The notes beneath the pieces were generated by a model. It did not search any database and was not told the DNA's origin. It worked only from the letters and a program-made list of their open reading frames with translations. From an uncultured Gammaproteobacteria bacterium (GTDB lineage Bacteria > Patescibacteriota > Microgenomatia > Daviesbacterales > UBA10151), in NCBI GenBank assembly GCA_964394855.1, contig CAYMZD010000003.1, forward strand, positions 22,607-86,606: a DNA stretch of 64,000 nucleotides, written 5' to 3'. The position numbers were made by a program, and so were the translations under genes. Of this stretch, positions 6,368-25,279 are shown piece after piece (within the stretch, counting starts at the first letter, position 1; each line of letters starts with the position of its first letter).

Positions 6368-7444
6368 CTACCTCATGTCAATCCTAGCCCGGTGACTCTC
6401 TACAGAAGCAAGTAGCCCCAGGGAGATAAGAGTACTGATGAGCGAACTTCCGCCATAGGAAATTAAAGGTAGGGTAATCCCCGTGATTGGCAGAAGACCG
6501 ATATTCATACCAATATTAACCACAGTCTGAAACATTAACACAGCACTCACTCCAATTGCTATCAGATACCCCAAATAATTTTGAGCTTGCAGTGCCACTT
6601 TTAGGCTATAGAAAATTAGAAAAAGGTAAATAATTATTATGATAAGCGTGCCCAAAAAACCTAATTCTTCTGCCATAGAGGCAAAAATAAAATCAGTCCT
6701 ATATTCTGGTAAAAATTGTAATCTACTTTGGGTACCATAACCCAAACCTCGGCCTAAAAATTGTCCAGAACCAACTGCAATAATAGATTGAATAGCCGTA
6801 TAGCCGACCTGGAGAGGATCACTGCCTGGTGACAAAAAAGTATTTATTCTTTGCTTCTGATAATCGTGTAGCGAAAGCCATACCACAGGCAAGATAAAGA
6901 CAAATAGCAGTATTAGGGTGAGCATTTTTTTTAGTGATATGTTGGAAGCAAAAAGCATAAACGACCACAAAGCTACGATGGTAATAGTCGTGCCTAAATC
7001 TGGCTGTTTAAATATCAGAAAAACAATTGGTAAGGTAAGCAGGATGCTTTTTAAAATATTAATCCATGTAGGTCGATTAAACGCCCAAAAAAAACTTAAA
7101 ACAAGTATCAAAACTGGTTTGGCAAATTCTGAAGGTTGAATATTAAAAATTCCCAAAGGAATCCAGCGAATAGAGCCCCGAGATTCTATTCCCAAGATAA
7201 AAACCAGGATAAGTAATAAAATTATCACAAAATAGCTTGGTTTAATAAAATTAACCAGAGTTTGATAATCTATTTCGGAAATTAAAAAATACAAAAATAT
7301 ACCAACGATGGCAAAAATAAGTTGCTGCAAGCCTAAGTTAAAAGAGGTGGAAAAAATGACAGATACACTAAAGGTTAAAAGCAAAAATAAACTGATTGTA
7401 ATTGGCCAATTTATGAATTTAAGCACCATTTCAAATTTTAGCAA
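6368..7444 (-). CDS. rodA: SEDS-family peptidoglycan polymerase (RodA-like, outside the dcw cluster)
   Basis: About ten TM helices and a conserved C-terminal SEDS block GSGQFLGRGLGYGTQSRLQFLPEYRTDFIFASMAEELGFLG. The start may instead be MVLKF at 7429, which would avoid the 14-nt overlap with ileS. Confidence 0.7.
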   Translation of the reverse strand: MLKFEMVLKFINWPITISLFLLLTFSVSVIFSTSFNLGLQQLIFAIVGIFLYFLISEIDYQTLVNFIKPSYFVIILLLILVFILGIESRGSIRWIPLGIFNIQPSEFAKPVLILVLSFFWAFNRPTWINILKSILLTLPIVFLIFKQPDLGTTITIVALWSFMLFASNISLKKMLTLILLFVFILPVVWLSLHDYQKQRINTFLSPGSDPLQVGYTAIQSIIAVGSGQFLGRGLGYGTQSRLQFLPEYRTDFIFASMAEELGFLGTLIIIIIYLFLIFYSLKVALQAQNYLGYLIAIGVSAVLMFQTVVNIGMNIGLLPITGITLPLISYGGSSLISTLISLGLLASVESHRARIDMR

Positions 7445-14829: not shown

Positions 14830-15921
14830 TTATGTTTGTTTCGAGATGTTAAATAATATCCCAATTGCAGCCAAATTTACCACCAGAGCAGAACCACCAT
14901 AGGAGATAAATGGTAGGGGAACACCTGTCAAGGGTAAGAGGGAGGAGATAGCCCCCAGATTAACTATGGCCTGTATCCCCAGCCACAGAGTTAATCCCGA
15001 AGCTAAAATTTTACCAAATTGATCAGTGGTCTTGTCTGCTATTTTAAAACCTCTAATGACAAGAGCAATAAAAAGAGCAATTAAGAGCATAGAACCTAAA
15101 AATCCCAGCTCTTCTCCAATTACAGCAAAAATCGAATCAGTTGTGACTTCGGGAAGATAATATTTTTGTCTAGACTGTCCCAATCCCAGTCCAAAAAGTC
15201 CACCTGTACCAAGGGCAATTAAAATCTGTGAAATATGGTAGGAAAATCCTTGTGGATCTGAAAAAGGGTCTAAAAAAGCCAAGACTCTTTTTCTGCGATA
15301 TTCTGAAAAAATTACCAGTAATAAAAAAGCTGCCACAGCTACTGGCAAGCTTAAAACTATCCTCCATAGTGATCCTCCTGCAATAATATATAAGCCCAAT
15401 GAAGTAGCCACAAAGACAGCAGTCGAACCCAAATCTTTTTGCAAAAAGCCCATGATAAATCCGACTATTAAAATCAGTCCCAACAAAGGTTTAAGCCTGG
15501 CTCCTTTATCAAAAATAGCCGAAAGCCAAAGCACAGCTGATAATTTAAAAACCTCTGCTGGTTGAATAGTCAAAAAATTAAGATTCAACCATCTGTGAGC
15601 TCCTCCCGCTGATGTACCTATTCCCGGTATAAAAACCGCCAGAAGAAGCAGTACTGAACCTGCTAATGCCAAAAAAGAAATACTTCTTAATTTATGGTAA
15701 TCAAAATTGGCAAAAAAAATTGCCACCAACACCCCCAAAACCATCCAAATGAGCTGCCATCTAATGTAGTAAAAACTATCACCAAAATCCCGATAAGCTT
15801 GTATAACAGAAGCATCATAAACAGATACCAAACCAAAAATGACCAACATGGAAACTACGAGGATAAGCGGGATATCAAAAGTTCTCTTTTGTGGATTTAG
15901 GTACGTTTTATTGAGCCTCAT
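14830..15921 (-). CDS. ftsW: SEDS-family lipid II flippase/polymerase FtsW
   Basis: Polytopic with C-terminal SEDS motifs. Located between mraY and murG. The ATG at 15921-15919 makes an ATGA overlap with the mraY stop. The track's GTG at 16008 would overlap mraY by 91 nt. Confidence 0.8.
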   Translation of the reverse strand: MRLNKTYLNPQKRTFDIPLILVVSMLVIFGLVSVYDASVIQAYRDFGDSFYYIRWQLIWMVLGVLVAIFFANFDYHKLRSISFLALAGSVLLLLAVFIPGIGTSAGGAHRWLNLNFLTIQPAEVFKLSAVLWLSAIFDKGARLKPLLGLILIVGFIMGFLQKDLGSTAVFVATSLGLYIIAGGSLWRIVLSLPVAVAAFLLLVIFSEYRRKRVLAFLDPFSDPQGFSYHISQILIALGTGGLFGLGLGQSRQKYYLPEVTTDSIFAVIGEELGFLGSMLLIALFIALVIRGFKIADKTTDQFGKILASGLTLWLGIQAIVNLGAISSLLPLTGVPLPFISYGGSALVVNLAAIGILFNISKQT

Positions 15922-16949
15922 CGCGAAAGTAAAGCTAACCAGAGCCCAAAAATAGCAAACATTGCTCCAGCCAACCAAAATCTGGTTACTATTTTTGGTT
16001 CTTCCCACCCGATATATTTAAAATACATATGTATTGGGGCTACAGGGAAAGCTTTTCTCCTCAAAAATCTTTTGGAAATCATCTGGATGGCAGAACTTAA
16101 GACAATTATGACATAAACTCCACCAATAATTGTCAATGCTAAAACTTTACCTGTTAAAAGTCCCACCACGGCCAGTGTAGCCCCAAAGGCTAAAGCACCA
16201 GCGTCTCCCAAATAGATTCTGGCTGGCCACACATTAAAATAAAGATAAGCAAATAAAGCTCCAATCCAGATACCAATAAAACTAGCCAGTGTTAAATTAA
16301 GTGAAGTTGTCGCCAGAGCAAGTAGAGCAAATAGACAAATAACTAAAAGCCCAGTTGATAATCCATCTAAACCATCAGAGATATTATAGGCATTGGAGAA
16401 GGAGACAATGATAAATGCTGCTATCGGAATATACCAAACCCCAATAATAAAATTTCCCAAACCAGATATATAAATATTATTAAGTCCAATCATTCTATAA
16501 AGCATAAATGCCACCAAAAAAGCAAAAATTATCTGCAAGATTAGGATAAACCTTCCTTTTATCCCCGCATATTTTCCACTAAAAGCTGTAAAGATTTTTC
16601 TGATATCATCCATCAGTCCTATGATAGCAAATGAAATAAAAGTGAATAAGATAATAAATAAATAGTCCGGACCGTCTAAACTATTATAACTATAAAAAGA
16701 AGTATTGATGATAGTTAAAATAGTAATAAGTATTATTAGTAGTATTCCTCCTCCCACTGGAGTATCCACGTCTTTCCCAGCTAGCAGCTTATTATGAATA
16801 GGGGTGGTGCTGTCATCATAGCCTTTGGGAATTGGTTTTTTATACTTCCTTCTTAAAATAAAAAGCAAATTAATAAAAGGAACCATAAAAAAACTGGTCA
16901 CCAAAAAAGAAAGCAGAACCAGTCCTAAAAGTTGACTTAATGGATTCAT
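15918..16949 (-). CDS. mraY: Phospho-N-acetylmuramoyl-pentapeptide transferase MraY
   Basis: NAYNISDGLDGL (MraY DGxDGL motif), ten TM helices, and an ATGA overlap with the upstream gene. Confidence 0.9.
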   Translation of the reverse strand: MNPLSQLLGLVLLSFLVTSFFMVPFINLLFILRRKYKKPIPKGYDDSTTPIHNKLLAGKDVDTPVGGGILLIILITILTIINTSFYSYNSLDGPDYLFIILFTFISFAIIGLMDDIRKIFTAFSGKYAGIKGRFILILQIIFAFLVAFMLYRMIGLNNIYISGLGNFIIGVWYIPIAAFIIVSFSNAYNISDGLDGLSTGLLVICLFALLALATTSLNLTLASFIGIWIGALFAYLYFNVWPARIYLGDAGALAFGATLAVVGLLTGKVLALTIIGGVYVIIVLSSAIQMISKRFLRRKAFPVAPIHMYFKYIGWEEPKIVTRFWLAGAMFAIFGLWLALLSR

Positions 16950-18022
16950 ATTTTTTTAATAATTCGTTTGACAACCTCGTCTAATCTAACTGACTTTGCT
17001 CCTTTAACCAAACAAACATCTCCTTTTACCAACACCTTTAAAAGTTTAGACACCATTTGCGGATTTTGCAAATTAGCTTCCATCTTTTCTGTTAAAAAAC
17101 CTAGTCTTTTTAACTCATCAGCTATAATATTGGCTGCTCCTACTCCCAAAAAAACTAGATCTACTTTTTCTCTATATATTTTTTGAGCTATTTTTCTGTG
17201 TAAGATCTCTGTATCTATATTGTCATCTTTCATCTCTCCAAAACATAAAATCCGTCTTCTGACAGATAACTGCTGCAGCGTATCAATCGCACCTTCAACA
17301 GATAAATAGGTGCCCTCACCCAGATCATCCAAAACCACAGCACCATTAAATCCTGGTAAAACTTGCAGTTCATTTTCCTGTTGGGGAATTTTCTCCAGGT
17401 AATTCTTAATAGCAATCAGTGAAATTCCTTCGTTTAAAGCCAAGGCACTGGCTGCTAAAATTGAGTAAATATGATGTTCACCTAAAATAGGAAGTTTTAT
17501 TTTTACCCTCTCTACTCCATAATTAATTTCAAACGAGGAATTAAAATCCTCAATTTTTAGATTACTAAGCCAAACCTGGCAATTTTCACTATCCTGACCA
17601 AAATAAATAACTCTGGCTTTTGAGTTATCAGCTAATTTTCTCACTGCCAAATCATCATAATTTAAAATTACCAACCCATCATTTGATAATGTACTCGAAA
17701 TTCTATTTATTTCACTGATTATCTTCTTACCAGCTAAAGTCAAACTACTCACAATAATAACATTGGGAGTAATGTTCTCCCATGAATTATCCATATGGTC
17801 TTTCTTTTGATTTAAATCCAAGATTATTCTTCCCTTTTTAGGTCTTATAGCCCACAATTTAATTCCTGGTTTGGTAGTAATGACTGAATATTTTTTAGAC
17901 AGAATGTGCTGCAGCGTCAGTATGATAGTTTTGCTAAAATTACCGACCACACCAATAAAAACTTCTTGGGGAATAATTTTGATATATTGTTTGCCAATAA
18001 AAGATAAAAATGGAATTTCCAA
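16946..18022 (-). CDS. Mur ligase family protein, MurF-like by position, with no N-terminal domain and a degenerate P-loop
   Basis: Central-domain end ILGEHHIYSILAASALAL and the C-terminal domain (GEGTYLSVEGAIDTL ... LGVGAANIIADEL) look Mur-ligase-like. The ATP P-loop reads GVVGNFSKT instead of the usual GxTGTNGKTT. Confidence 0.5.
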   Translation of the reverse strand: MEIPFLSFIGKQYIKIIPQEVFIGVVGNFSKTIILTLQHILSKKYSVITTKPGIKLWAIRPKKGRIILDLNQKKDHMDNSWENITPNVIIVSSLTLAGKKIISEINRISSTLSNDGLVILNYDDLAVRKLADNSKARVIYFGQDSENCQVWLSNLKIEDFNSSFEINYGVERVKIKLPILGEHHIYSILAASALALNEGISLIAIKNYLEKIPQQENELQVLPGFNGAVVLDDLGEGTYLSVEGAIDTLQQLSVRRRILCFGEMKDDNIDTEILHRKIAQKIYREKVDLVFLGVGAANIIADELKRLGFLTEKMEANLQNPQMVSKLLKVLVKGDVCLVKGAKSVRLDEVVKRIIKKI

Positions 18023-18023
18023 A

Positions 18024-19283
18024 TTAAGCCTCTCTTTTTATATTAACACCCAATTTAGTAAGTTTTTCGACAACGTTTTCATAACCTCTTTCTATTAACT
18101 CTGCTTTGTGAATAGTGCTTTTTCCGGATGCCACCGCTGCCGCCAATACTAAAGCCATACCAGCCCTTATATCAGGACTTTCTAAATCGCGTCCTTTAAG
18201 TTTAGATGGACCATACACTAAAACTCGGTGGGGATCGGCAATAGTAATATCTGCCCCCATGGCAATTAACTTATCAACAAAAAACATTCTACTTTCATAT
18301 ATCCAGTCATGGCATAAAGTGATGCCTTTACTTTGAGTAGCCAAAACAATGGTAGGACTCATCATATCAGTGGGAAAACCAGGCCAAAGACCTGTTACAA
18401 TTTTCTTCGGGGAAGTGAGTTTTTGCCCAGAGAAAATAAATTTACCATCCTTAAATTCAGCCTTAAGGCCAAATCTCTTAAGAGGTTCTATAACAGGATC
18501 AGCATCTATCCCACTTGCGCCACTTACCACAACTTTTCCAGAAGTCATGGCTGCGGCAATAGCATAGACGCCCATTTCCAGATGATCCCCAGATAAGCAA
18601 AATTTCGTTCCAGACAGTTTTTTAACCCCCTCTATCATCAAGTTTGTTGTTCCCACCCCCGAAATATTTGCACCCATAGATATTAAAAGTCGGCACAAAT
18701 CAACAACATGCGGATCAGCAGCGCAGTTTCTGATATGGACTTTACCAGGATATAAAACAGAGGCTAAAATTAAATTTTCCGTACCAGTCACAGAAGTTAT
18801 GTTTTGGAAAATATGGCAAATTCTCTTTGACATGGATTTTTGGGGATAGCCAACAGTAAAATACAAATCGTCTTGAGTGATCTTTGCTCCAAGAGTAGCA
18901 AAACCATCAAGATGAACTTCAAAACTTCTTCTGCCAATGATATCTCCTCCGGGATAATGGAACTTGACCCTTCCAAGTCTTGACAGTAACGGCCCGACCA
19001 AAACAATTGAACCCCTTAGCTTTACTACCAAATCATCAGGCAGGCTTGATTTTAAATTGGCTGATTTTAAACTAACTGCTCCGTTTCTCCTTAAAACTTT
19101 TACCCCAATTTTTTCTAGAATTTGTAGCAAAATATCCGTGTCTTTAATCTCGGGGATATTTTCTAAAATAACCTCATCTTCTGTTAAAAGTGCTGCCGCC
19201 ATACAGGGAAAAATGGAATTTTTATTACCAGATATTGTTACTTTCCCCAGTAGGGAATTGCCACCTTCAATAATATATTTCAT
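18024..19283 (-). CDS. murA: UDP-N-acetylglucosamine 1-carboxyvinyltransferase MurA
   Basis: MKYIIEGGNSLLGKVTISGNKNSIFPCMAAAL is the canonical MurA N-terminus. Two-domain EPT fold, 419 aa. Confidence 0.9.
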   Translation of the reverse strand: MKYIIEGGNSLLGKVTISGNKNSIFPCMAAALLTEDEVILENIPEIKDTDILLQILEKIGVKVLRRNGAVSLKSANLKSSLPDDLVVKLRGSIVLVGPLLSRLGRVKFHYPGGDIIGRRSFEVHLDGFATLGAKITQDDLYFTVGYPQKSMSKRICHIFQNITSVTGTENLILASVLYPGKVHIRNCAADPHVVDLCRLLISMGANISGVGTTNLMIEGVKKLSGTKFCLSGDHLEMGVYAIAAAMTSGKVVVSGASGIDADPVIEPLKRFGLKAEFKDGKFIFSGQKLTSPKKIVTGLWPGFPTDMMSPTIVLATQSKGITLCHDWIYESRMFFVDKLIAMGADITIADPHRVLVYGPSKLKGRDLESPDIRAGMALVLAAAVASGKSTIHKAELIERGYENVVEKLTKLGVNIKREA

Positions 19284-19284
19284 G

Positions 19285-19863
19285 TTAAATTCTCGCCTTA
19301 AATCGAAATACAGCAGATAAAATCAAGTGCTTACTTAACTTAAGATCCTCGGGGGCGATCTGTTCAATTTCTCCATTTTCTAAGACTTTGATAGTTTTTA
19401 CTTTTGACTGAAGTAATTTATTTAAAAATAAATTCCCTCCAACCGTACCCGGAAGTCCCTTAATTTCATCAGTTTGTAAACCTTGCTTATTTAAAAATTC
19501 CCATAGCCTGTTAATACTTACTCCTGAATCAACCTCTATCAAAGCTTCATCAACTCCTAAAGATTTTTGAGCCACCTTACCTTTAATACCCACTATATTC
19601 ATGTGTTGAGTTCTGTTTTTAACCACCAGTCCATCAAAACCTTGATCAGCAATAACAATCTTACTGCCAGAACCTATCACCAAATAAGGAACAGTCAGTT
19701 GTTCTGCCATTTGGACAATTTTAGCAAGTTCATGAGTAGTAAAAGCCACGAAAAAAATTTTAGATGGACCACCCAAAGCTACTGTTGTATGGTTGGCCAG
19801 GGGTTCGTCCATTTTGAAACGATCCCTGCCAAATGAACTAATAAGTAAGTTTAGTTTATCCAT
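19285..19863 (-). CDS. murB: UDP-N-acetylenolpyruvoylglucosamine reductase MurB, short form: FAD-binding domain only, 192 aa
   Basis: LANHTTVALGGPSKIFFVAFT, GSGSKIVIADQGFDGLVV and GLPGTVGGNLFLN match the MurB FAD-binding half. The ORF ends 1 nt before the murA start, so the roughly 100-aa C-terminal substrate-binding part is absent. Confidence 0.6.
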   Translation of the reverse strand: MDKLNLLISSFGRDRFKMDEPLANHTTVALGGPSKIFFVAFTTHELAKIVQMAEQLTVPYLVIGSGSKIVIADQGFDGLVVKNRTQHMNIVGIKGKVAQKSLGVDEALIEVDSGVSINRLWEFLNKQGLQTDEIKGLPGTVGGNLFLNKLLQSKVKTIKVLENGEIEQIAPEDLKLSKHLILSAVFRFKARI

Positions 19864-21070
19864 TCTTCAACGCATCCTCACAAGCTTTTCTATCAGACCA
19901 AGGCAACTCTTTCTTGCCATCTAAATTAATAGACTTTTCATGACCTTTACCAAAAATTCCCACCGTATCACCCTTTTTAGCTAAAATATTAATGGCAAAA
20001 TCAATGGCTTTTTTTCTATCATCAATTATATAAAAATTCACCCCCTCTTTGGCTCCGGCTTTTTTTGCCCCTTTTTTAATTTGCTGGTTGATAGCTTTAA
20101 GTTCTCCTCTTGGATCAACAGCGGTCAGAATTACCATATCAGAAAGTTGCTGGGCTATTTTTCCCATCATCCACCGCTTTTTAATATCCCTCTGGCCTTC
20201 TGCCCCGGTAATGGTAATCAGCTTCCCTGATGGAGTTTGTGTTCGCAGGGCCATAAGAGCTTTTTCTAAACCATTAGGTGTGTGAGCGAAATCAATGATA
20301 ATCCTTAAACCATTATTATTTTTTACCCCTTCCATTCTACCTGTTAACCCTTTAAATTGCAGCAGGGATTTGACTACCCGTCTTTGATCAACCCCCAAAT
20401 AAGTAGTGGTTGCCAAAGCAGCTAGGGCATTTTCAATATTGTAATCTCCTGGTACTTGTAACTTAATCCTTAAATCTTGTTGATTAACATCACCTCTTTC
20501 TAACCCAAAGGTAATTATCTTAGCCAATAACTTACCCGATCGTTTAACATATTGGTTAAGGTTGCAATTGATAATGGCTACCCTTACACCCTTCAATAGT
20601 TTTAATTTAGTTTTGATGTAACTGGTTTTGGTCCGATGATAATCTAGGTGTTCATGAGTAATATTGGTAATCACTCCCACCTTAAATTTCACCCCCCAAA
20701 ACCTGAATTGATCCAAGCCGTGAGAGGTTACTTCCAAAATTAAATATTCATCTCCATGATCTAATGCTTGCTTGGTCAATTTCTGTACCACAAAAGGATC
20801 AGGAGAGGTCACATGAAAGCCTGTATCGTAGGATTTTCCAGCAATTTCCGCATTGATAGTTGAAACTAGAGAAACCTTTTTACCAGCATCCTTTAAAATC
20901 TGGTAAATCATATTAACTGTAGTAGTTTTACCATCTGTACCGGTCACCCCGATTACTGCTAAATCTTTTGACGGGAAGCCATAAAAAATATTGGCCAAAA
21001 AGGCCTTGGGCAAATGCCAAAAATAATTTATCATCCATTGAGATAAAAACCGCCTTAATAATTTTTTCAT
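19856..21070 (-). CDS. murE: Mur ligase, MurE-like (UDP-MurNAc-L-Ala-D-Glu:diamino acid ligase), lacking the N-terminal domain
   Basis: P-loop GVTGTDGKTTT sits only 37 aa from the N-terminus. C-terminal TAVDPRGE (DNPR-like, DAP-type specificity motif) and GKGHE are present. Confidence 0.65.
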   Translation of the reverse strand: MKKLLRRFLSQWMINYFWHLPKAFLANIFYGFPSKDLAVIGVTGTDGKTTTVNMIYQILKDAGKKVSLVSTINAEIAGKSYDTGFHVTSPDPFVVQKLTKQALDHGDEYLILEVTSHGLDQFRFWGVKFKVGVITNITHEHLDYHRTKTSYIKTKLKLLKGVRVAIINCNLNQYVKRSGKLLAKIITFGLERGDVNQQDLRIKLQVPGDYNIENALAALATTTYLGVDQRRVVKSLLQFKGLTGRMEGVKNNNGLRIIIDFAHTPNGLEKALMALRTQTPSGKLITITGAEGQRDIKKRWMMGKIAQQLSDMVILTAVDPRGELKAINQQIKKGAKKAGAKEGVNFYIIDDRKKAIDFAINILAKKGDTVGIFGKGHEKSINLDGKKELPWSDRKACEDALKNG

Positions 21071-24403: not shown

Positions 24404-25279
24404 TTAAGGATTAGAAAGAGTTAACACTGCAAAAATTCCTGATCCATCAGTAGAACCGGAAAGTTTTCCTTCTTCCCCTTTTGATTCCATTTCCAGCCAT
24501 TTGTTATCTTTTTCCGAAAATCTGGCTAGTTTAGCATCAGCTGGGGGATTTTCAGCCAGTTCAATACTCACTTGTCCACCCTTTAACTCCTTAGCCAAAG
24601 GTACATTTAAACTATAAACTTTACCCAAAACCTCCCTACCTTCTGGTAGTTTAGGTAGACCTGTTAAATCATTAATAATGGTGTATCCAGTTAACGCCAA
24701 TTCCGATCTATCAGCTTTGACAAAGTATTTAAAGTGGCCATCGCCCGAACTTAAAACTCCCAAAGCTACATCTGGCCGCTGCAAATGCCATTGAGTGATC
24801 ATTTTCAAAGCCCTGGCACCTTTTTTAATATGTAAAGTTAATGTACCATTTTCCACATCCTTATCATATTTACACACATTTTTAGAGCAGGTCCCCAAAA
24901 GTATTTCTTGTTCATATTCTCCCTTTTTTACCTTAGTATCAATGCTTCCCACCACTCCACGATCAATTCCTTCTGCATTATAAGCCAGCTCATAGGAAAT
25001 GGTATCATAAGAAGAAGTACGCTTTAAGCTTAGAATCAAAGCATTGCCATCACGGCGAGGAATAAGTACCGCATAAGGTCCTTCTGCATCAAAAGAAATT
25101 TCATTTTCTTCTACAACTTGACTGGAAGAACCACTAAATTTTTGAAAAAAAGAAAATCCACCAAAGAAAATTAATAAAACTGCCAATAATAAGCTTAAAG
25201 TAATTTTGTTTTTAGCATAAATATTTAATAATCTGGGCAGAAAATTATTCACTTTGTGCTTTTGCCCATGGTGGGCCAA
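24404..25279 (-). CDS. Hypothetical membrane-anchored (signal-anchor) extracytoplasmic protein
   Basis: One N-terminal TM (ITLSLLLAVLLIFFGGFSFF), then a roughly 240-aa soluble domain rich in beta-type residues. No recognisable catalytic motifs. Confidence 0.45.
   Translation of the reverse strand: MAHHGQKHKVNNFLPRLLNIYAKNKITLSLLLAVLLIFFGGFSFFQKFSGSSSQVVEENEISFDAEGPYAVLIPRRDGNALILSLKRTSSYDTISYELAYNAEGIDRGVVGSIDTKVKKGEYEQEILLGTCSKNVCKYDKDVENGTLTLHIKKGARALKMITQWHLQRPDVALGVLSSGDGHFKYFVKADRSELALTGYTIINDLTGLPKLPEGREVLGKVYSLNVPLAKELKGGQVSIELAENPPADAKLARFSEKDNKWLEMESKGEEGKLSGSTDGSGIFAVLTLSNP

What the first reader, a model, noticed from the sequence alone, without database searches (positions are those of the whole stretch)
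16946..18022. MurF-position Mur ligase with a degenerate ATP P-loop and no N-terminal domain
The P-loop reads GVVGNFSKT where Mur ligases have an almost invariant G-x-T-G-T-N-G-K-T-T. Both the Thr/Asn and the Lys-Thr context are altered, and the roughly 80-aa N-terminal UDP-binding domain is absent at 358 aa total. The central-domain end and the C-terminal domain look intact. This may be a catalytically impaired paralogue, or a ligase with altered nucleotide use.
Basis: seen in the sequence. Interest (0 to 1): 0.5.

Follow-up and report, generated by a model that had tools for sequence, protein, structure and literature searches.

The report
Dead MurF kept in division cluster
The gene that sits where the cell-wall enzyme MurF belongs in this Patescibacteria (Daviesbacteria-type) genome still folds like MurF but has lost most residues needed for catalysis. 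It is nevertheless kept by selection, and related lineages have lost the same residues many times, so it is unclear how these cells complete their cell-wall precursor.

Summary
ORF 16946-18022 (minus strand, 358 aa) is a MurF-type Mur ligase with a degenerate P-loop (G24-VVGNFSKT-32), no other GK[TS] motif and no N-terminal domain. An in-frame stop lies 5 codons upstream, so no extension is possible.

It keeps only 3 of 9 catalytic positions. Changes in E. coli MurF numbering: G110S, E158D, H188G, carbamyl-Lys K202I, R316E, N334E.

The missing N-domain is not part of the decay. Catalytically intact orthologues in Daviesbacteria and Curtissbacteria lack it too.

The gene is not an extra paralogue. 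Intact and degenerate forms occupy the same slot: murE, short murB, (murA), X, mraY, ftsW, murG. Each of 26 species genomes has one copy.

Catalytic residues were lost at least 7-12 times in the family. Two dead copies compared give dN/dS 0.11, like their neighbours, so this is not a pseudogene. A family-specific hairpin, FE[IL]NYGVERV, is 85-100% conserved in 39 degenerate representatives.

The AlphaFold model (pLDDT 88) best matches MurF structures.

Best reading: a catalytically dead MurF orthologue kept for a non-catalytic role, either scaffold or substrate binding, next to MraY. Whole genomes could not be searched, so a second murF elsewhere is not excluded.

The parts
16946..18022 (-). 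Degenerate MurF orthologue ('dead MurF'), 358 aa, TTG start
   Evidence: ORF list. Pfam Mur_ligase_M 45 bits over aa 101-195 only, and Mur_ligase_C 35.5 bits. TIGR01143 murF 115 bits against a cut-off of 288.6. AlphaFold pLDDT 87.9; best PDB matches are MurF, 4qf5 TM 0.83.
17927..17953 (-). P-loop remnant G24-VVGNFSKT-32 (E. coli MurF 104-112 region). Gly110->Ser; Lys111 and Thr112 retained.
   Evidence: Alignments to intact orthologues and to E. coli MurF. No other GK[TS] in the protein.
17366..18022 (-). Central (ATP-binding) domain remnant, aa 1-219. The first ~100 aa carry deletions of the LDPxLNIP loop and the xHSEFLG segment. Substitutions: E158->D, H188->G, carbamyl-Lys K202->I.
   Evidence: pLDDT is 57-92 in the first 100 aa and above 90 afterwards. 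In the L004/L006 pair dN/dS is 0.21 for this part against 0.06-0.10 for the rest.
17504..17533 (-). Family-specific beta-hairpin motif F164-EINYGVERV-173. It is the most conserved segment in both intact and dead forms.
   Evidence: Five of its positions (F164, N167, G169, V170, E171) are invariant across 120 family members and two more (E165, R172) nearly so. Its ten positions are 85-100% conserved in 39 degenerate 50%-cluster representatives, but nine of them only 14-53% (F164 92%) in 95 canonical MurFs. It lies in strands E161-168 and E171-177 of the model.
16997..17365 (-). C-terminal (Mur_ligase_C) domain, aa 220-342. The fold is kept. D331 is kept. R316->E (ENELQ), DDTYNSSP->DDLGEGTY and GEMxELG->GEMKDDN lie at its N-terminal edge and inside it.
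   Evidence: pLDDT above 90. dN/dS 0.057 in the dead pair.
18029..18034 (-). Shine-Dalgarno GAGAGG, 6 nt upstream of the TTG start, inside the 3' end of murA
   Evidence: Read directly from the sequence.
16946..16949 (-). ATGA stop/start overlap with mraY, suggesting translational coupling
   Evidence: Sequence and ORF coordinates.
15918..16949 (-). mraY (downstream neighbour)
   Evidence: Glycos_transf_4 in the identical Logan contigs. 69-76% identical across dead-MurF genomes.
18024..19283 (-). murA (upstream neighbour)
   Evidence: EPSP_synthase, 214.7 bits.
19285..19863 (-). Short murB, 192 aa, FAD-binding domain only
   Evidence: dN/dS 0.14.
19856..21070 (-). murE, 404 aa, no N-terminal domain, all catalytic motifs intact
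   Evidence: TIGR01085 351.7 bits, above the cut-off of 257. Alignment.

Best explanation
This is the positional orthologue of MurF (UDP-MurNAc-tripeptide:D-Ala-D-Ala ligase) in a Daviesbacteria-type (Patescibacteria/Microgenomates) genome. It has become a pseudoenzyme: it keeps the two-domain MurF fold but can no longer carry out ATP-dependent acyl-phosphate ligation.

Shown:
- MurF ancestry, fold and dcw position.
- Substitution of the Mg2+ ligand His, the carbamyl-Lys, the triphosphate Arg, the DxYN Asn and the P-loop Gly.
- Purifying selection on the dead form.
- Repeated independent loss of the same residues in the family.

Inferred: the protein is kept for a non-catalytic job that the intact ancestor already had. 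The most likely job is as a structural or substrate-holding subunit of the cytoplasmic precursor machinery (MurE / short MurB / MraY / MurG). It would be co-translated with MraY, and its conserved family-specific hairpin (FE[IL]NYGVERV) and C-terminal domain would serve as the working surfaces.

D-Ala-D-Ala addition must then be supplied by something not seen here.
For: Ancestry and fold:
- The best family match is murF.
- An intact orthologue aligns to E. coli MurF residues 99-446 at 2.8e-44.
- The model has pLDDT 87.9 and its top Foldseek hits are MurF structures.

Same slot:
- Intact forms (P0051, P0350) and degenerate forms (P0035, P0013, P0053, P0080, P0100) all lie between murE/short murB/(murA) and mraY-ftsW-murG.
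- There is one copy per genome in 26 species genomes.

Loss of catalysis:
- Only 3 of 9 scored positions are kept. Sister sequences vary even at Lys111/Thr112.
- The roles of the P-loop Lys, the triphosphate Arg and the carbamoylated Lys are as summarised in PMC3060825.

Selection:
- L004 vs L006, both dead, give dN/dS 0.11, against murA 0.16, mraY 0.08, ftsW 0.075 and murG 0.19.
- By region the values are 0.21, 0.10 and 0.057.
- Dead forms diverge only about 1.3-1.4 times faster than their neighbours. Intact forms diverge 0.99 times as fast.

Recurrence:
- 29 of 120 relatives and 9 of 25 species representatives are degenerate.
- Fitch parsimony on the tree gives at least 7-12 independent transitions.
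- About 40 degenerate clusters at 50% identity exist.

Retained surface: the hairpin motif, C148/W151 and E303-L304..L307-G308-F309 are 82-100% conserved in the dead forms.

Expression: an SD sequence and an ATGA overlap with mraY.

Precedent: Mur ligases bind one another and MurG through their central domains (PMC10214165).
Against: - No direct evidence exists for any binding partner or ligand. The scaffold role is inference only.
- FtsI keeps SxxK/SxN/KTG in all dead-MurF genomes, and MurE is intact. A D-Ala-D-Ala-ending precursor therefore still seems to be needed, and its source is unknown.
- Lys31-Thr32 and Asp (for E158) are retained in this particular protein, so residual nucleotide binding cannot be excluded from sequence alone.
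- dS is near saturation (1.3-1.9).
- The tree is an unbootstrapped NJ tree.
- The N-terminal alignment of degenerate sequences is uncertain in detail.
Confidence: 0.55

Rival explanations
1. A second, catalytically competent murF (or another ligase) elsewhere in the genome adds D-Ala-D-Ala. The dcw-cluster copy has been freed from catalysis. This is compatible with the dead-orthologue reading but would make the finding much less puzzling.
For: FtsI transpeptidase motifs and MurE are intact in dead-MurF genomes, so the activity seems to be needed. murC, murD and ddl are also absent from the cluster and the window, so Mur genes are scattered in this clade. Repeated loss is easiest if a backup exists.
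Against: No second family member was found in any of 26 species genomes, within +-10 kb of any locus, or in about 78 kb around this gene. 76% of relatives keep all nine catalytic residues, which argues against general redundancy. Daviesbacteria proteins retrieved with a sister-lineage MurF were the same dcw orthologue. Whole genomes could not be searched.
Confidence: 0.4
2. It is still an active ligase with an unconventional active site or altered nucleotide or substrate use.
For: Lys31-Thr32, Asp at the E158 position, D331 and the NxDD motif are retained. An otherwise intact relative (L028) tolerates the same Gly110->Ser change.
Against: The His Mg2+ ligand, the carbamyl-Lys, the triphosphate Arg and the Asn of DxYN are all replaced by dissimilar residues, and two active-site loops are deleted. 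In the closest dead relatives the P-loop Lys/Thr are not conserved, so there is no conserved alternative active site. The first 95 aa are the least constrained part.
Confidence: 0.07
3. It is a gene in the course of decay, that is, relaxed selection on the way to loss, with no remaining function.
For: Dead forms evolve 1.3-1.4 times faster than neighbouring genes and have longer branches. The N-terminal third is poorly conserved.
Against: dN/dS between two dead copies is 0.11 overall and 0.057 in the C-terminal domain, like essential neighbours. Open frames are kept in about 40 divergent clusters. The motifs are 82-100% conserved. The RBS and translational coupling are intact.
Confidence: 0.08

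Closest known systems
MurF, UDP-MurNAc-tripeptide:D-Ala-D-Ala ligase (E. coli 1GG4, A. baumannii 4QF5/4QDI, T. maritima 3ZL8, P. aeruginosa 4CVK)
   Same: The central and C-terminal domain fold (TM 0.81-0.83). The best HMM family. The position in the dcw cluster directly upstream of mraY. The NxDD and D331 motifs.
   Different: No N-terminal domain. P-loop Gly->Ser. E158D, H188G, K202I, R316E, N334E. Two active-site loops deleted. Scores 115 bits against the TIGR01143 cut-off of 288.6.
N-domain-less but catalytically intact MurF of Daviesbacteria and Curtissbacteria (e.g. P0051 in CP066688.1, P0350, P0277)
   Same: Orthologous slot, 45-53% identity, the same family-specific motifs (FE[IL]NYGVERV, NLQNPQ, KGDVCL) and the same lack of the UDP-binding N-domain.
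   Different: These keep all nine catalytic positions and a ~45-aa N-terminal extension. The window protein and its clade lost both.
Plastid PAP11 / MurE-like subunit of the plastid-encoded RNA polymerase (8R6S_Q, 8W9Z_N)
   Same: A Mur-ligase fold used as a structural subunit of a complex rather than for cell-wall ligation. It appears among the structural and sequence matches. That PAP11 is non-catalytic in seed plants is from my own knowledge and was not tested here.
   Different: Eukaryotic, derived from MurE, recruited to an unrelated machine. Here the dead ligase stays inside its original operon.
MurT of the MurT/GatD lipid II amidotransferase
   Same: A Mur-ligase homologue without the UDP-binding N-domain that works as part of a complex (PMC6085368 listed; 6H5E among the fold matches).
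   Different: MurT is catalytically active, has a DUF1727 C-domain and a GatD partner. The query gives no MurT family hit among the NCBIfam matches and matches MurT structures poorly (TM 0.48).
Mur ligase complexes and the MurE-MurF chimera (Bordetella pertussis)
   Same: Evidence that MurE, MurF, MurC, MurD and MurG associate through central domains and that gene order reflects assembly (PMC10214165). This is the basis for proposing a scaffold role.
   Different: In those systems every ligase is catalytically active.

Membership tests
Mur ligase superfamily (fold) | Mur_ligase_M central domain and Mur_ligase_C domain above Pfam gathering scores | tested here: met
   PF08245 45.1 bits (cut-off 24), but only profile positions 102-200. 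PF02875 35.5 bits (cut-off 28.4).
Mur ligase superfamily (fold) | Three-dimensional similarity to solved Mur ligases | tested here: met
   Model pLDDT 87.9, pTM 0.85. Foldseek E 3e-23 to 7e-22 and TM up to 0.83 against MurF structures.
MurF (TIGR01143; EC 6.3.2.10) | Curated family score | tested here: not met
   115.4 bits against a cut-off of 288.6, matching profile positions 139-416 only.
MurF (TIGR01143; EC 6.3.2.10) | ATP P-loop GxxGxxGK(T/S) | tested here: not met
   GVVGNFSKT: Gly110->Ser, with Lys/Thr kept. No other GK[TS].
MurF (TIGR01143; EC 6.3.2.10) | Mg2+ ligands Glu158 and His188 (E. coli MurF numbering) | tested here: not met
   E158->Asp and H188->Gly, with the xHSEFLG segment deleted.
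MurF (TIGR01143; EC 6.3.2.10) | Carbamoylated Lys (K202), essential in MurD/E/F | tested here: not met
   K202->Ile. Requirement as cited in PMC3060825.
MurF (TIGR01143; EC 6.3.2.10) | Triphosphate/ribose/adenine contacts Arg316, Asp331, Asn334 (DxYN) | tested here: not met
   R316->Glu (ENELQ). D331 kept. Y333->Gly, N334->Glu (DDLGEGTY).
MurF (TIGR01143; EC 6.3.2.10) | N-terminal UDP-binding domain (~E. coli residues 1-98) | tested here: not met
   Only 26 aa precede the P-loop, with a stop 5 codons upstream. Also absent in intact orthologues, so not diagnostic in this clade.
MurF (TIGR01143; EC 6.3.2.10) | dcw-cluster position upstream of mraY, orthologous to intact MurF | tested here: met
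   Same slot in the 8 loci whose called genes were read, and the same murE-to-murF spacing in the loci checked; one copy per genome in 26 species genomes.
MurF (TIGR01143; EC 6.3.2.10) | D-Ala-D-Ala adding activity | not testable with these tools
   Needs an enzyme assay or complementation of murF(ts).
MurT (lipid II isoglutaminyl synthase subunit) | Match to the MurT family model / DUF1727 C-domain / gatD neighbour | tested here: not met
   No MurT model among the 18 NCBIfam hits of the query. No glutaminase gene in the cluster. Foldseek TM 0.48 to 6H5E_D.
Non-catalytic Mur-ligase-fold subunits (e.g. plastid PAP11) | Stable incorporation into a protein complex without ligase activity | not testable with these tools
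   Only indirect support: loss of catalytic residues together with purifying selection.

The most novel reading that the evidence does not exclude
The genomes that carry the dead copy have no MurF activity at all. Either their peptidoglycan precursor is finished by a non-Mur route to the D-Ala-D-Ala terminus, or they build wall from tripeptide precursors.

The dead MurF would then be an obligatory structural or substrate-presenting subunit of a compact Mur-MraY assembly. In this assembly MurB, MurE and MurF have each shed the domain that normally holds the UDP-sugar substrate.
Probability: 0.18. Interest if true: 0.85.

Novelty: new variant of a known kind. Interest (0 to 1): 0.6.

Why it matters
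MurF is regarded as an essential enzyme of bacterial wall synthesis, present wherever peptidoglycan is made, and as a drug target. Here its orthologue has lost catalysis repeatedly while remaining under selection inside an otherwise intact division and cell-wall operon.

If these genomes have no other MurF, there must be an unknown way to finish or bypass the pentapeptide precursor in a large group of uncultured bacteria.

If they do have one, the dead copies are a natural experiment. They would separate a non-catalytic role of a Mur ligase, long suspected from Mur-complex work, from its enzymatic role. They also point to a specific conserved hairpin as the candidate interaction surface.

There is a practical consequence too. 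Automatic annotation of these proteins as 'UDP-N-acetylmuramoyl-tripeptide--D-alanyl-D-alanine ligase' overstates what they can do, which affects metabolic reconstructions of Patescibacteria.

Tried and rejected
1. N-terminal extension through a start miscall: rejected. There is an in-frame stop 5 codons upstream and an SD before the TTG.
2. A shifted P-loop: rejected. No GK[TS] occurs anywhere in the protein.
3. Assembly artefact: rejected. The identical ORF was assembled from three runs.
4. Second Mur ligase in the window: an HMM of the intact family against all six-frame ORFs found only murE. Pfam scans of 44 window ORFs found no Ddl, MurC or MurD.
5. Walking beyond the window ends (+10 kb and +4 kb): nothing relevant.
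6. Genome-collection scan with the dead-clade alignment. It returned 26 loci but not the window's own genome or its closest dead relatives, so a second murF in those genomes could not be tested.
7. Search with a sister-lineage intact MurF (P0160) to pull out a possible second Daviesbacteria MurF. The Daviesbacteria hits were the same dcw orthologue.
8. Exact cluster look-up for names and accessions: no names returned.
9. Correlation of decay with the presence of murA between murB and murF: none.
10. Literature searches on dead or pseudo-enzyme Mur ligases and on Patescibacteria or Daviesbacteria MurF: nothing on this.
11. MurT, CapB, FPGS or CfbE identity: MurF is by far the best family. The other Mur-ligase-type families listed are weak or partial matches and CapB does not appear.
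Full report
**What is there.** The ORF at 16946..18022 is on the minus strand, is 358 aa long and starts at TTG. It lies in a tightly packed division and cell-wall (dcw) cluster, all on the minus strand:
- mraZ, rsmH, ftsL, ftsI
- murE (404 aa), a 192-aa murB-like gene, murA
- this ORF
- mraY, ftsW, murG, ftsQ, ftsA, ftsZ.

The murA stop codon ends 1 nt before the TTG. A GAGAGG Shine-Dalgarno sequence lies 6 nt upstream of it. The ORF's stop overlaps the mraY start as ATGA. In frame, a stop lies 5 codons upstream of the TTG. The identical protein was assembled independently from three sequencing runs.

The window has 36% G+C. The relatives are from Candidatus Daviesbacteria and other Microgenomates/Patescibacteria MAGs.

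**Checking the observation.** The P-loop reads G24-VVGNFSKT-32, and there is no other GK[TS] in the protein. Pfam recognises only the second half of the Mur ligase central domain (profile 102-200) plus the C-terminal domain. The best NCBIfam family is murF, at 115 bits against a cut-off of 288.6.

**How far the damage goes.** I aligned the protein with 119 relatives and with E. coli MurF, whose residues 99-446 I took from the PDB alignment. I then scored nine positions: G110, K111, T112, E158, H188, K202, R316, D331 and N334.
- 91 of 120 sequences keep all nine.
- The window protein keeps three: K111, T112 and D331.
- Its changes are G110S, E158D, H188G, K202I (the carbamoylated lysine), R316E (EHRLQ->ENELQ) and N334E (DDTYNSSP->DDLGEGTY).
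- The LDPxLNIP loop and the xHSEFLG segment are deleted, and GEMxELG has become GEMKDDN.

The P-loop lysine and the Arg stabilise the triphosphate, the Asp binds the ribose, and the carbamoylated lysine of MurD/E/F is essential. This is as summarised in PMC3060825, which cites Bouhss 1997/1999 and Dementin 2001.

In the closest dead relatives even the Lys/Thr positions drift (GDWGRQ, GDWGRT, GDWGIQ, GDGGTQ). Nothing in this clade is preserving a nucleotide site.

**The N-terminal domain is a separate matter.** Catalytically intact orthologues (~398 aa) align to E. coli MurF from residue 99 onward. In place of the UDP-binding domain they have only a ~45-aa leader. In the 50%-identity representative library, many intact MurFs of 387-447 aa have just 20-72 residues before the P-loop. 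A Curtissbacteria example is among them. The missing domain is therefore a lineage trait of working enzymes and is not evidence of impairment.

**Orthologue, not paralogue.** Gene neighbourhoods were read for one intact member (P0051 on the 820-kb chromosome CP066688.1), a second intact one (P0350) and five degenerate ones (P0035, P0013, P0053, P0080, P0100). All have the gene in the same slot: after murE and the short murB, with or without murA, and directly before mraY-ftsW-murG. A scan of one genome per GTDB species found 26 loci in 26 genomes and never two in one genome. Within +-10 kb of every locus the only other Mur-ligase-like ORF is murE.

**Recurrent loss.**
- Among 25 scorable species representatives, 16 keep 9/9 and nine have lost between one and eight residues.
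- I built an NJ tree from the well-aligned C-terminal 250 columns. On it the window protein falls in one clade of strongly degenerate sequences. Other degenerate sequences are scattered among intact ones.
- Fitch parsimony needs 7-12 transitions, depending on the threshold.
- A profile of the dead clade, searched against 1.84 billion representatives, listed about 44 sequences (bits >= 212) ahead of the ordinary MurFs. Of the 39 degenerate ones that were full-length enough to score, all kept 0-7 of 9, and only one representative in this group (P0121) was intact.
- Caveat: the tree is not bootstrapped, and N-terminal alignment of degenerate sequences is uncertain in detail.

**Still under selection.**

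| L004 vs L006 (both dead, 74% aa identity) | dN/dS |
|---|---|
| murF-like, whole gene (dN 0.17, dS 1.58) | 0.11 |
| murF-like, aa 1-95 | 0.21 |
| murF-like, aa 95-200 | 0.10 |
| murF-like, aa 200-349 | 0.057 |
| murA | 0.16 |
| mraY | 0.08 |
| ftsW | 0.075 |
| murG | 0.19 |

Whole-gene values are and regional values. dS is near saturation, so the ratios are approximate.

Across 351 locus pairs I compared the divergence of the MurF-like protein with the mean divergence of MraY, FtsW and MurG. The ratio is 0.99 for intact-intact pairs, 1.29 for mixed pairs and 1.37 for dead-dead pairs. This indicates partial relaxation, not neutrality.

The most conserved element in the dead forms is not a Mur-ligase motif. 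It is a family-specific hairpin, F-E-[IL]-N-Y-G-V-E-R-V (aa 164-173). N167, G169 and V170 are 100% conserved, and E171 and R172 are 95-97% conserved, in 39 degenerate representatives. In canonical MurFs nine of the ten hairpin positions are 14-53% conserved; only F164 (92%) is shared. C148/W151, K206, E210 and E303-L304..L307-G308-F309 behave the same way. Five of the hairpin positions are also invariant across the 120 intact and dead members.

**Structure.** AlphaFold2 with the 120-sequence alignment gives pLDDT 87.9 and pTM 0.85. Confidence is weaker (57-92) in the first 100 residues and above 90 afterwards. The best PDB matches are MurF: P. aeruginosa 4CVK at E 3.4e-23, A. baumannii 4QF5 at TM 0.83 and T. 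maritima 3ZL8 at TM 0.81. MurC and MurE follow. The plastid RNA-polymerase subunit PAP11, a MurE-like protein, is also matched.

**What it most likely does.**
- Shown: it is the MurF orthologue, it cannot plausibly perform the ATP-dependent ligation, and it is maintained by selection.
- Inferred: it keeps a non-catalytic function that the intact ancestor already had. The conserved family-specific surfaces predate the loss and outlast it.

Mur ligases associate with each other and with MurG through their central domains (PMC10214165; PMC6420597 listed), and here the gene is translationally coupled to mraY. The most economical proposal is therefore a structural or substrate-holding subunit of the precursor machinery. 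I put about 0.85 on 'catalytically dead', about 0.9 on 'functional protein', and about 0.35-0.4 on the scaffold/substrate-holder mechanism specifically.

**The open problem.** FtsI keeps SxxK, SxN and KTG in every locus, including those with dead MurF. MurE keeps all its catalytic motifs. MraY, FtsW and MurG are well conserved. By established knowledge a D,D-transpeptidase needs a D-Ala-D-Ala-terminated donor, so the activity seems to be required.

I found no second murF in the window, in the extra ~14 kb fetched beyond its ends, or near any related locus. A search seeded with a sister-lineage intact MurF returned only the same dcw orthologue for Daviesbacteria. I could not search whole genomes. 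The genome scan did not return the window's genome or its nearest dead relatives. A second murF elsewhere therefore remains the main unresolved alternative.

**Comparison and novelty.** It works like, and descends from, MurF. It fails the membership tests for an active MurF: family score, P-loop, His Mg2+ ligand, carbamyl-Lys, Arg and DxYN. It is best described as a MurF-derived pseudoenzyme.

The nearest conceptual precedent is the plant plastid MurE-like PAP11. That PAP11 is non-catalytic in seed plants is from my own knowledge and was not tested here.

Full-text searches found no description of dead Mur ligases in Patescibacteria. I rate it a new variant of a known kind, with interest 0.6. 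It would be more interesting if the genomes prove to lack any other MurF.

Noticed in passing
window 19285-19863 (-); also L004 5454-6044, L005 9354-9941, L006 176-757, L009 8131-8730, L037 7387-7977: The murB gene encodes only ~192-199 aa. It has the FAD-binding domain alone and aligns to residues 16-173 of a 309-aa MurB (4PYT). The C-terminal substrate-binding domain, which carries the catalytic Ser/Glu, is absent. This form is universal in the Daviesbacteria loci fetched and is under purifying selection (dN/dS 0.14). No separate MurB C-domain gene was seen nearby.
   Followed up: partly
window 19856-21070 (-): MurE (404 aa) also lacks the N-terminal UDP-binding domain (profile match starts at 90/486) but keeps every catalytic motif. 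In this clade MurB, MurE and MurF have thus each lost the domain that normally holds the UDP-sugar substrate.
   Followed up: partly
representative-library hits P0160-P0263: Many catalytically intact MurFs of 387-447 aa have only 20-72 residues before the P-loop. N-domain-less MurF seems widespread (a named example is from Curtissbacteria), which is at odds with the textbook three-domain description.
   Followed up: partly
window 24404-25279 (-); counterparts L004 689-1531, L005 3065-3973, L009 395-1270, L037 2121-2960: A conserved 280-302-aa ORF with no Pfam hit lies immediately upstream of mraZ in each of these five Daviesbacteria dcw clusters. Function unknown.
   Followed up: no
loci L014, L018, L019, L021, L023, L024, L026, L028, L030, L031, L033, L034: Twelve GTDB species-representative MAGs that carry this Daviesbacteria-type cluster are titled 'uncultured Gammaproteobacteria bacterium'. 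This looks like a mislabel in the deposited records.
   Followed up: no
window 27443-60033: A very long run of surface-glycan genes. It includes a sugar transferase, many GT2/GT4 glycosyltransferases, four PMT_2-type mannosyltransferase-like membrane proteins, a Wzy-like polymerase, a flippase and an 863-aa F5/8 type C domain protein. It also holds large ORFs of 450, 482 and 859 aa with no Pfam hit.
   Followed up: no
window 6368-7444 (-) and 14830-16008 (-): There are two SEDS genes. One is ftsW in the dcw cluster. The second is a rodA-like gene directly after ileS, and the same ileS-SEDS pairing recurs in L005 and L008.
   Followed up: no
L028 10001-11101: An otherwise intact orthologue (8/9) carries the same P-loop Gly110->Ser change (GITGSVSKTS) as the window protein. 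Either this substitution is tolerated or it is an early step of decay.
   Followed up: no
L004 4375-5454: MurE of one dead-MurF genome has internal deletions of 8 aa, about 33 aa and 5 aa (359 aa in total, against 404-406 in the other genomes) but keeps all its catalytic motifs.
   Followed up: no
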